Assembly: GCA_951406725.2 (NCBI GenBank) | Contig: OX597831.1 | Location: 2,418,001-2,482,000 of the forward strand | From: Octopus vulgaris | Lineage: Eukaryota | Reading direction: 5' to 3' | DNA: 64,000 nt | Part shown: positions 32,429 to 34,276 of the stretch, piece after piece | Layout: the number at the start of each line of letters is the position of its first letter | Position numbering within the stretch: the first letter of the stretch is position 1 | The notes under the pieces: generated by a model | What the model saw: only the letters and a program-made list of their open reading frames with translations | Told to the model about the DNA's origin: nothing | The model's database searches: none | Made by a program: the position numbers and the translations under genes

Positions 32429-32632
32429 GTGACCGCGTGTGTACTGTTGGCGATTTTTTTCCTCCGTCTTCCTTTCTCTGGATCTTTCCTTTTCCTATGT
32501 TTCTGACGAAGAGCTCCGCTCGAAACGTAAAACCCTCCTTCTTCCCTTCCTTCCTGAGCATCCAATAATACTATATGTGTTCCACGTCCTCACGTTGTTG
32601 TGTTTTCTCTTTGTGTTTTCATGTTTGGATTA

Positions 32633-32637
<5 letters not shown>
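32429..32637 (+). mobile_element. Short PLE pseudo-LTR-like repeat carrying the hammerhead
   Basis: Embedded between (TA)n/(TG)n microsatellites, contains the minimal hammerhead, and has a second copy in the window. Confidence 0.65.
32499..32533 (+). ncRNA. Minimal type-I hammerhead ribozyme (Penelope-like element type)
   Basis: GTTT-CTGACGA-A-GAGC(TCC)GCTC-GAAA-CG-TA-AAAC: stem I, intact CUGANGA and GAAA boxes, stem II, palindromic ACGT at stem III and a GUA cleavage triplet (cut after 32529). Confidence 0.85.
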
Positions 32638-32683
<46 letters not shown>

Positions 32684-32821
32684 CGGAGATGTACTCGCAT
32701 AGCAAGTAATTTGATCTGAGATCGTGTGCTGAAACGAAAACAATTGCAGCGTGGGAGGTGTTTATAAGCCATTTAAGAAACACACAAAAGCCGTTCGATT
32801 CACTCCAACATTTAAGTTTAA

Positions 32822-32871
32822 TTTGTCAAAATATTTTCGTCGCTAAAATCCGCGACCTGTTCACTGACAAA
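32822..32871 (-). ncRNA. Mirror copy of the variant hammerhead-like motif (left arm of the palindrome)
   Basis: Exact reverse complement of 33311-33360. Confidence 0.6.
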
Positions 32872-33310
32872 GTCCGTGCTGCATCTAAGAAAGTAACAGT
32901 TAGTTCGTCATATATATGTATGTACGTATGTATGTGTGTATGTATGCATACATGTGTGTATGTATGTACGTATTCATGTCCGCACATACGCCTGTGTATG
33001 CATGTATGTATGTATGTATGTATGTATGTATGTATATATGTATGTGTGTGTATAAGCACGCACATACACTCTATAAAACATAAAGTTATAAACGCTACAG
33101 GTTTATAACTTTATGTTTTATAGAGTGTATGTGCGTGCTTATACACACACATACATATATACATACATACATACATACATGCATACACAGGCGTATGTGC
33201 GGACATGAATACGTACATACATACACACATGTATGCATACATACACACATACATACGTACATACATATATATGACGAACTAACTGTTACTTTCTTAGATG
33301 CAGCACGGAC

Positions 33311-33360
33311 TTTGTCAGTGAACAGGTCGCGGATTTTAGCGACGAAAATATTTTGACAAA
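33311..33360 (+). ncRNA. Variant minimal hammerhead-like motif with G3:C8 core (GUGAACA)
   Basis: TTTGTCA-GTGAACA-G-GTCGC(GGATTTTA)GCGAC-GAAA-ATAT-TT-TGACAAA: 7-bp stem I, 5-bp stem II, GAAA box, palindromic AAAATATTTT at stem III. Confidence 0.6.
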
Positions 33361-34058
33361 TTAAACTTAAATGTTGGAGTGAATCGAACGGCTTTTGTGT
33401 GTTTCTTAAATGGCTTATAAACACCTCCCACGCTGCAATTGTATATATATATATATATAAATATATATATGTATATGTATGTATGAGAGTGTACTGAACA
33501 TTTCCTGGCTTTAAGGTTATCACAAAAGCTCAGTTTGGAGGCTCAACCTTCTGAGCTCTTCTACAGGCCTTAGAAAAGCTGACAGTGCTGCAATAAACGT
33601 GAATCTGAGAGGGGGAACATGTTGAATGAAACCCTAATTAACTGGTCTTCCTGTAGTTTCCTTTACCCAAAGCCAGGAACTTTTCACCATCCCCTCGTTT
33701 ATATATAAACGGCATTGATTGGTTGAAATTACCGAAATACAACAACTTTAACAAAAAAATAACTTCCAAAATACAGAATTTTCTCAAAAATGCTAAGAGT
33801 AAAAGATGTTTTATGTGACACATTCTACAAGTATACGAAGTTTGAAAGTGTTTAGTTACAAAAAATTATTTTTTAAATCTTTCGGTGAAAAGGTAAAGAT
33901 CCCTATATTGCAGTAAATGTTACATTTGTAAATCATTTAGTTTCACTGTTTTTCTCATCTTTTCTTTTTATTTTTTTTCTCCTTTTCCCTAGATCCCAGC
34001 CACACTTCCGCAAACAGCAGAAAATCGACAATTAACCATTCCAACTAAGAGCAACTTC

Positions 34059-34130
34059 ATGCACCAAAATATCCGTGTGAAACTTCCTTTTGGAGTTCTT
34101 TTCATGTTTTGCTGCCTGAAATATGAGTGA
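34059..34130 (+). other. Upstream ORF (23 aa) overlapping the predicted LCA5 start codon out of frame
   Basis: ATG at 34059 reads MHQNIRVKLPFGVLFMFCCLKYE*. Its TGA (34128-34130) lies inside ATGAGTGA, overlapping the main ATG at 34123. Confidence 0.6.
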
Positions 34131-34276
34131 TTCTTCGAGTGCTTCTCAGTCATCTGAGGAAAACGAGGTGTTACGTGCATCTCCGTCTGAAAAGGTTGAC
34201 AACTATAGTGAATGCTTCGAGTCAGATGCTGAAAGTGAGGTAACTGTACAAACAAAACAGTCATCAGCGAGGAAAA
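34123..34276 (+). CDS. LCA5: Lebercilin (LCA5-like) coding exon 1, ATG at 34123; the exon itself begins at the 33993 acceptor
   Basis: Long polypyrimidine tract ending in AG at 33992. ORF MSDSSSASQSSEENEVLRASPSEKVDNYSECFESDAESEVTVQTKQSSARK+A|gttagt has a phase-1 donor that matches the phase-1 start of the next exon. The Ser/acidic N-terminus with a YSxxFE motif resembles lebercilins. Confidence 0.75.

What the first reader, a model, noticed from the sequence alone, without database searches (positions are those of the whole stretch)
33311..33360. Hammerhead-shaped RNA with a natural compensatory G3:C8 core swap
Seen: every element of a minimal type-I hammerhead is present (7-bp stem I, extra nucleotide after A9, 5-bp stem II, GAAA, self-complementary AAAATATTTT at stem III, UH), but CUGANGA reads GUGAACA. 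Established: C3 and G8 form a Watson-Crick pair in the active hammerhead fold, and swapped pairs rescue activity in vitro. Inference: a double change at exactly positions 3 and 8 suggests selection for catalysis. This could be a variant ribozyme family on an octopus repeat that CUGANGA-based searches would miss. The predicted UUU triplet is normally weak, and I cannot say whether this variant is already described.
Basis: partly seen in the sequence, partly recalled or inferred. Interest (0 to 1): 0.85.

Follow-up and report, generated by a model that had tools for sequence, protein, structure and literature searches.

The report
Retrotransposon hammerhead with swapped core pair
Thousands of copies of an octopus jumping gene (a Penelope-like element) carry a hammerhead-shaped RNA motif whose two paired core letters are swapped (G3:C8 instead of C3:G8); it likely still cuts itself slowly, but cutting has not been shown.

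Summary
Confirmed, and not chance. 33311-33360 is a minimal type-I hammerhead (HHR) in the terminal repeat of a Penelope-like retrotransposon (PLE): at least 2,257 copies in this genome, roughly 10^4 by extrapolation. G3 is in 66 of 67 and C8 in 64 of 67 copies sampled without looking at the core. Related PLEs carry the same fold at the same place, with C3:G8 (7) or U3:A8 (2), so the swap is a derived natural change. In vitro, C3G/G8C is a known partial rescue.

Against strict selection for catalysis:
- sister families here have U3.G8 or C9;
- a non-pairing G3.G8 sub-lineage has about 20 distinct insertions;
- copies pile up at a likely capped start 15 nt upstream, not at the cut site;
- this window's copy is a fold-back that would bury the motif in read-through RNA.

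Best reading: a slow, dimer- or protein-assisted ribozyme that copying does not require. Natural U3:A8 is published. I found no published natural G3:C8, but four key papers were unavailable, and the scan noted G3:C8 motifs before in two other genomes' PLEs (unchecked). New variant of a known kind.

The parts
33311..33360 (+). Minimal type-I hammerhead motif with G3:C8 core pair
33318..33325 (+). Core strand: G3 (33318), U4, G5, A6, A7, C8 (33323), A9, extra G (33325)
   Evidence: G3 in 66 of 67 and C8 in 64 of 67 copies
33344..33353 (+). G12-A13-A14, 6-nt palindrome A15.1..U16.1 (33347-33352; helix III possible only between two hammerheads), U17; predicted cut after 33353
   Evidence: cut site inferred from hammerhead numbering
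32822..32871 (-). Exact inverted second copy of the motif
33093..33442 (+). Direct arm: 3' part of the PLE terminal repeat (pLTR), 100% identical to the 3' pLTR of full-length copy L047
32680..33093 (-). Inverted (fold-back) arm of the same insertion; 32680-32739 is the extra ~60-nt 'tail'
33294..33300 (+). Likely capped transcription start (A at 33296): many copies begin here, often with an extra G (inferred, no RNA-end data)
   Evidence: 38 of 67 copies lose homology here (one is a 3-nt deletion); 20 of 38 have G before it, against 0 of 29 that continue
33410..33442 (+). First codons of the PLE ORF (ATG at 33410), ending at the shorter of two 3' ends
32637..32681 (.). (TA)n target microsatellite, left side
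33442..33484 (.). (TA)n target microsatellite, right side

Best explanation
This is the minimal hammerhead motif of a Penelope-like retrotransposon with the core pair swapped to G3:C8; it likely still cuts its RNA after 33353, slowly, and would need a second hammerhead or the element's own protein to do so. Shown: it lies in the terminal repeat, 50 nt before the start codon of an RT + GIY-YIG-like ORF. A full-length copy has two such motifs 4,261 nt apart (L047). Relatives have the same fold at the same place with C:G or U:A. Inferred: transcription starts about 15 nt upstream of stem I. The two motifs of one tandem transcript would pair through their 6-nt palindromes to form helix III. G3:C8 would replace C3:G8 and hold the 2'-OH of nucleotide 8 at the scissile bond (role recalled from hammerhead structures; PMC8495972 passage says the 2'-OH of G8 is essential). 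A cut would remove the 58-nt capped leader or release unit-length RNA. Most new copies are made from uncut RNA, so cutting would be a minor or regulatory route, not a step needed for insertion. The window's own copy is a dead fold-back fragment whose read-through RNA is predicted to bury the motif.
For: PLE context: pLTR-ORF-pLTR, YVDD, CX3CX2C linker, YIGET..R..EH; two 3' ends 60 nt apart, TA targets. Cross-element covariation: with 3 and 8 free, 10 of 21 loci hit, all on the sense strand after the ORF and all Watson-Crick at 3:8 (7 C:G, 2 U:A, 1 G:C = this family). Shuffles gave 0.09 hits per set, 22% of them paired. Trees nest this family among C:G and U:A elements (100/99; 98/97), so G:C is likely derived. 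An old sister family, about 42% identical in protein, has the same majority letters in stems I and II: the motif's 3' half is 72% identical, against 41-45% for flanks and 35-36% shuffled. Inside the family, lineage-level changes hit loop II (5 of 8 columns) but 1 of 41 core/stem/palindrome columns, and that one keeps pairing as U.G (p=1.7e-4). In vitro: C3G/G8C was the only rescuing double mutant of the CUGA region (PMC9901934) and partly restores a PLE hammerhead that needs its protein to cut (PMC11167929). G3-C8 is reported to do worse with C17 than with G17 (PMC3884650, 'data not shown'); this lineage has U17.
Against: No cleavage data. A G3.G8 form, which cannot pair, occurs in 96 of the first 100 of 171 G8-bearing copies. 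About 23 of them cluster on contig C16; the 20 loci fetched mostly have different flanks and ends, so a non-pairing source made or converted copies. The two sister families here are also off-consensus: family B has C9 in place of A9 and family C has U3.G8 (10 of 13). 5' junctions between 33347 and 33369 are spread flat, with 5 of 100 listed rows at the cut site, 2 of them ambiguous (hand tally). Core against 3' flank inside the family is not significant (p=0.59), and no compensatory stem change was seen. The swapped dimer (-27.2 kcal/mol) is no more stable than two monomers (-26.6 to -29.4), and helix III is all A-U. G3.U17 extends stem I in the ground state, like the C3-G17 trap of PMC3884650. 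The descriptor was written after I had seen the loci, and the loci are related, so they are not independent trials.
Confidence: 0.6

Rival explanations
1. A catalytically dead or near-dead hammerhead descendant. The two-stem fold is kept for another job in the 5' leader (binding the element's protein, promoter overlap, translation control), and the core drifts: C3G first, then G8C fixed by chance or for folding.
For: All three octopus families have off-consensus cores. G3.G8 copies multiplied. There is no footprint of cut RNA in insertion ends, while the uncut start is heavily used. HHR mutants do not impair insertion by a lizard PLE in vitro (PMC11167929). Naiad PLEs thrive without canonical HHRs (PMC8557442).
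Against: U4, G5, A6, G12-A14 and A15.1-U16.1 are all kept across families whose flanks are near unalignable. Of the three possible changes at position 8, the fixed one is the complement of G3. G3:C8 is the majority even in the old-type copies (15 of 18). The palindrome is perfect in this family.
Confidence: 0.32
2. G3 was selected as DNA, because it creates an Initiator-like TCAGT at 33315-33319 in the internal promoter; C8 followed to keep the RNA pair or by chance.
For: The motif lies 15-65 nt after the likely start. Family C has the related TCATT at the same place. The Initiator consensus is recalled, not from a call.
Against: Copy 5' ends cluster at 33296-33302, not 33317, and the spacing to the start differs by 1 nt between subfamilies.
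Confidence: 0.06
3. A chance hairpin in an AT-rich repeat that only resembles a hammerhead.
For: Rfam reports no hammerhead here at E<=10. The folding z-score is only -2.4.
Against: Rfam also missed the canonical C3:G8 motif at 32503 in the same scan. The descriptor gives 0.002 hits per shuffled window. Canonical hammerheads sit at the same position in related elements.
Confidence: 0.02

Closest known systems
Minimal type-I hammerheads of metazoan Penelope-like elements (Cervera and de la Pena 2014, PMC4209133)
   Same: Sits in the pLTR; extra nucleotide between 9 and 10.1; G10.1-C11.1; palindrome in place of helix III; solo and opposite-strand copies; U17 common; UUU triplet in the Crassostrea example.
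   Different: The core reads G3..C8. The Fig. S3 rows in the extracted text begin CUGA or UUGA, none GUGA. The extra nucleotide is G (their consensus H). Stem I is longer (7 bp).
Natural U3-A8 core variant (Perreault 2011, PMC3088659; Schistosoma PLEs, PMC4209133)
   Same: Natural covariation of the same tertiary pair; U3:A8 also occurs in relatives of this element (L068, L069).
   Different: U3-A8 needs two transitions and can pass through a U.G wobble. G3:C8 needs two transversions, and the purine and pyrimidine change places.
Engineered C3G/G8C rescue mutant (PMC9901934; PMC11167929; review PMC8495972)
   Same: The same two letters; rescue is partial.
   Different: Those are laboratory mutants in other hammerhead backgrounds; this one is natural, fixed in a family of thousands of copies, with U17.
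Neptune/Nematis-type EN+ PLEs (as described in PMC8557442)
   Same: RT, then a CX2-5CxxC linker, then a GIY-YIG-like domain; partial tandems, 5' inversions, tail, (TA)n targets.
   Different: The tail is about 60 nt rather than 30-40. Clade placement against reference sequences was not tested.

Membership tests
PLE minimal type-I hammerhead | Located in the pLTR of a PLE, sense to the ORF | tested here: met
   L047 pLTR-ORF-pLTR, motifs at 1242 and 5503
PLE minimal type-I hammerhead | Stem I and stem II with G10.1-C11.1 and one extra nucleotide after A9 | tested here: met
PLE minimal type-I hammerhead | U4 G5 A6, A9, G12 A13 A14, A15.1-U16.1, H17 | tested here: met
   0 of 11 core columns with a lineage-level change in 67 copies
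PLE minimal type-I hammerhead | Literal C3 and G8 (CUGANGA) | tested here: not met
   G3 66/67, C8 64/67; hence filed as a variant, not as a standard member
PLE minimal type-I hammerhead | Watson-Crick complementarity between positions 3 and 8 | tested here: met
   G:C here; C:G and U:A in relatives. Complementarity only; the pair itself was not observed
PLE minimal type-I hammerhead | Palindrome at 15.x-16.x allowing a dimeric helix III | tested here: met
   6-nt palindrome 33347-33352; dimer energy marginal
PLE minimal type-I hammerhead | Site-specific self-cleavage after H17 | not testable with these tools
   no assay; no genomic footprint; only contigs available
Rfam hammerhead families | Covariance-model match | tested here: not met
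   which also missed the canonical motif at 32503, so the miss is not specific to the swap
EN+ Penelope-like element | One ORF with RT and C-terminal GIY-YIG-like endonuclease | tested here: met
   motifs read from translations; homologues named RT-domain proteins. Pfam gave no hit; PDB only a weak RT hit, E 9e-5
EN+ Penelope-like element | pLTR direct repeats, 5' inversions, optional tail | tested here: met
Neptune/Nematis clade | CX2-5CxxC linker and (TA)n targeting | tested here: met
   CX3CX2C before the endonuclease; TA flanks
Neptune/Nematis clade | RT phylogeny with reference clades | not tested
   no named reference PLE sequences were in hand

The most novel reading that the evidence does not exclude
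The first high-copy natural hammerhead with the 3:8 pair inverted and active. One octopus genome holds a natural series of one ribozyme (G3:C8; C3:G8 with C9; U3.G8; and the dead G3.G8 intermediate). The swap is tolerated because the lineage has U17 rather than C17, and cleavage acts as a protein- or dimer-gated switch that removes the capped leader of the retrotransposon RNA.
Probability: 0.3. Interest if true: 0.72.

Novelty: new variant of a known kind. Interest (0 to 1): 0.52.

Why it matters
The C3-G8 pair defines the active hammerhead fold. Its inversion is the rescue found in exhaustive mutagenesis, yet I found only U3-A8 reported from nature. A fixed natural G3:C8 would close that gap. 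It would also mean CUGANGA/UUGANAA descriptors miss whole families (about 10^4 copies here), and that some PLEs scored as hammerhead-less may not be. What PLE hammerheads do is an open question. This genome offers matched natural alleles with near-identical stems (G:C, U.G, G.G, C:G with C9) that make 'catalysis or only fold' directly testable, and its insertion ends show that uncut, likely capped RNA is the main template.

Tried and rejected
Rfam scan: no hammerhead hit; the listed matches were unrelated, all below gathering score. Pfam: nothing for three ORF pieces.

Splice-acceptor reading of the AG at 33296-97 (branch-point-like and pyrimidine-rich upstream): not favoured, because copies keep the AG and share no upstream exon. 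It is not excluded without RNA.

A C3:G8 or U3.G8 ancestral subfamily inside this family: not found. Of the 20 double-change loci fetched after, 18 belong to a separate old family C and 2 to this family. No linked site separates old G8 from old C8 copies, so whether G3.G8 is ancestral or derived is open.

Segmental duplication as the cause of the C16 G3.G8 cluster: mostly rejected, since flanks differ (one pair in L230 and the pair L202/L203 look duplicated).

Expression: no RNA holder listed. Four runs were laid as contigs. They show the element in organisms A-D with no listed difference at positions 3 or 8 (7 rows not shown), but cannot show ends, strand or RNA status. Used neither for nor against.

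The first loose pattern was at chance level in the window (8 vs 6.5).

Twelve of 31 metagenome loci were left out because their protein match stops short of the C-terminal part. Of the 21 scanned, 11 gave no hit: two have under 10 bases after the match, and L071 (U:A) and L081/L083 (C:G with G12 changed) were seen by eye but fail the descriptor.

An exact count of G3:C8 copies was not obtained.

Full report
Observation. The motif is at 33311-33360 as described: 7-bp stem I, core strand with G at 3 (33318) and C at 8 (33323), one extra G, 5-bp stem II opening with G10.1-C11.1, GAAA, a 6-nt palindrome (33347-52), and U17 (33353). Stems I and II are the predicted fold. A descriptor with positions 3 and 8 free finds three hits in the window: this motif, its exact inverse at 32822-32871, and an unrelated canonical C3:G8 motif at 32503. 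In 1,000 shuffles it finds 2 hits, none with stems this long. Rfam finds neither kind.

What it belongs to. The 171 bases around it have 2,750 first-look candidates in the 2.8-Gb genome, and the 40 scored are 99-100% identical. A pattern anchored only on the flanks gives 2,257 copies against 0 for the control. A loose core pattern gives 36,650 against 19,931; 35 of its first 100 rows are this family by eye, which extrapolates to roughly 13,000. About 1 kb upstream in longer copies lies the end of an ORF with an RT motif (YVDD), a CX3CX2C linker and a GIY-YIG-like domain. L047 is a full repeat-ORF-repeat copy, with the motif 50 nt before the ATG and again 4,261 nt later; its ORF has breaks. Copies end at two sites 60 nt apart, mostly in (TA)n. 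These are the marks of an EN+ Penelope-like element (PMC8557442, passages; PMC11167929, section). Pfam gave no hit and the PDB only a weak RT match, so the assignment rests on motifs and architecture. The best named homologue is an Octopus protein that matches many loci here at 98-100%. The window's copy is a truncated fold-back (32680-33093 inverted, 33093-33442 direct). Read-through RNA is predicted to form one long hairpin with essentially no hammerhead fold, whereas RNA starting at 33296 forms stems I and II (probability above 0.93 for four of the five pairs checked, 0.71 for the outermost).

Is the swap real and derived? I fetched the first 67 of the 100 listed flank-anchored copies. G3 is in 66, C8 in 64, and none has C3:G8. 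Changes shared by many copies, CpG sites set aside by eye, fall in loop II (5 of 8 columns plus an indel) and the 5' flank. Of 41 core, stem and palindrome columns one varies, and it turns U-A into U.G in 9 copies (Fisher p=1.7e-4, counts entered by hand). The core against the 3' flank is not significant (0 of 11 vs 6 of 67, p=0.59), and no two-sided compensation occurs inside the family.

The stronger test is across elements. Of 31 metagenome loci related by protein, 19 that reach the C-terminal part were scanned together with this family and a sister family B. Ten of 21 loci have a best hit, all sense and after the ORF, all complementary at 3:8: 7 C:G, 2 U:A and this G:C. Shuffles gave 0.09 hits per set. 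The descriptor was written after I had read the loci, and the loci are kin. Protein trees place this family with octopus families B and C (98/97), inside a clade of C:G and U:A elements (100/100), so G:C is likely derived. Family C, found by asking for copies changed at both 3 and 8 (110 matches, control 1; 64 U3.G8 and 6 C3:G8 among 100 listed, by hand), is an old PLE about 42% identical in protein. Its majority stem I and II letters equal this family's, and the motif's 3' half is 72% identical against 41-45% for flanks. That shows homology and long-term conservation of the motif.

Evidence against strict selection for catalysis. Family C is U3.G8 in 10 of 13 copies taken with 3 and 8 free. 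Family B has C9, as does L068. In this family 171 copies carry G8, and 96 of the 100 listed are G3.G8. Most may be single mutations, but about 23 share markers and cluster on contig C16, and the 20 loci fetched mostly differ in flanks and ends. So a non-pairing source made or converted copies. G3:C8 still dominates old-type copies (15 of 18), and the order of events is unresolved.

Insertion ends show no trace of cut RNA. Among 100 of 597 listed copies with a break between 33347 and 33369, junctions are flat, with 5 at the cut site (hand tally). By contrast, 38 of 67 anchored copies lose homology right before 33296 (one is a small deletion). Twenty of these have a G there, against 0 of 29 continuing copies (p=2e-4 against 0.25). 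Some of these G's could be templated by fold-back junctions. I read this as a capped start with uncut RNA as the main template (inference). The dimer is marginal in energy, and G3 can wobble with U17.

Mechanism. Most likely a slow, conditional ribozyme (0.6). The two motifs of a tandem transcript, or one helped by the element's protein, would form helix III and cut after U17, 58 nt from the start and 56 nt before the ATG. Published PLE minimal hammerheads are inactive as monomers and weak as dimers (PMC4209133). The lizard one cuts only with its protein, is partly rescued by C3G/G8C and is not needed for insertion (PMC11167929). In a full double-mutant scan the G:C swap was the only rescue in the CUGA region (PMC9901934). 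The main rival is a fold kept without catalysis (0.32).

Novelty. Natural U3-A8 is published (PMC3088659, section 8; PMC4209133). I found no report of natural G3:C8 in eight library searches or in what I read:
- PMC4209133: parts 1-2 of 4 of the text, parts 1-2 of 3 of supplement 2 plus a term search; supplement 1 could not be searched, and figures came as scrambled text.
- Passages only: PMC3884650, PMC8495972, PMC6765202, PMC8557442, PMC10085705, PMC13725137, PMC7229834, PMC6155905, PMC11014351, PMC9901934.
- Part 1 of 5 of bioRxiv 10.64898/2026.07.22.740005.
Not held, so unseen: Lunse 2017 (PMC5785218; its title reports numerous small hammerhead variants in PLEs), Przybilski and Hammann 2007, Martick and Scott 2006, Arkhipova 2017. 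Any of these or their supplements could already hold it. This scan's notes list G3-C8 motifs with an extra nucleotide behind PLE-like RTs in two other genomes; these are unchecked AI notes. Verdict: a real, well-supported new variant of a known kind, activity unproven; interest 0.52.

Noticed in passing
window 32499-32533 (+), within a repeat of about 32431-32635: A second, canonical C3:G8 minimal hammerhead (4-bp stem I, 4-bp stem II, 4-nt palindrome, A17) of a different repeat family, 150 bases from the swapped one; also missed by Rfam.
   Followed up: partly
L062-L065 (G000 C17, C22, C15, C27): Sister PLE family B with many open 1,312-residue frames and a hammerhead with C in place of A9; the same C9 occurs with U3:A8 in metagenome locus L068.
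   Followed up: partly
L157-L174, L207-L219: Old PLE family C with U3.G8 core and the same stem letters as the family studied here.
   Followed up: yes
G000 C16 1.7-10.6 Mb (L220-L239): About 23 G3.G8 copies with shared markers confined to 9 Mb of one chromosome but at different insertion sites: local hopping or local gene conversion, unexplained.
   Followed up: partly
L066:4973 and L087:2358: Further natural core variants in related PLEs: U15.1-A16.1 (L066); G5A with G15.1-C16.1 and a one-pair stem II (L087).
   Followed up: no
window 33298-33321: A 7-codon upstream frame starts at 33298 and stops at the TGA inside the hammerhead core; probably incidental.
   Followed up: no
window about 33984-34200 (+): An acceptor-like site followed by an ATG and a short open stretch may be a host exon, which would put the insertion in an intron; not checked.
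   Followed up: no
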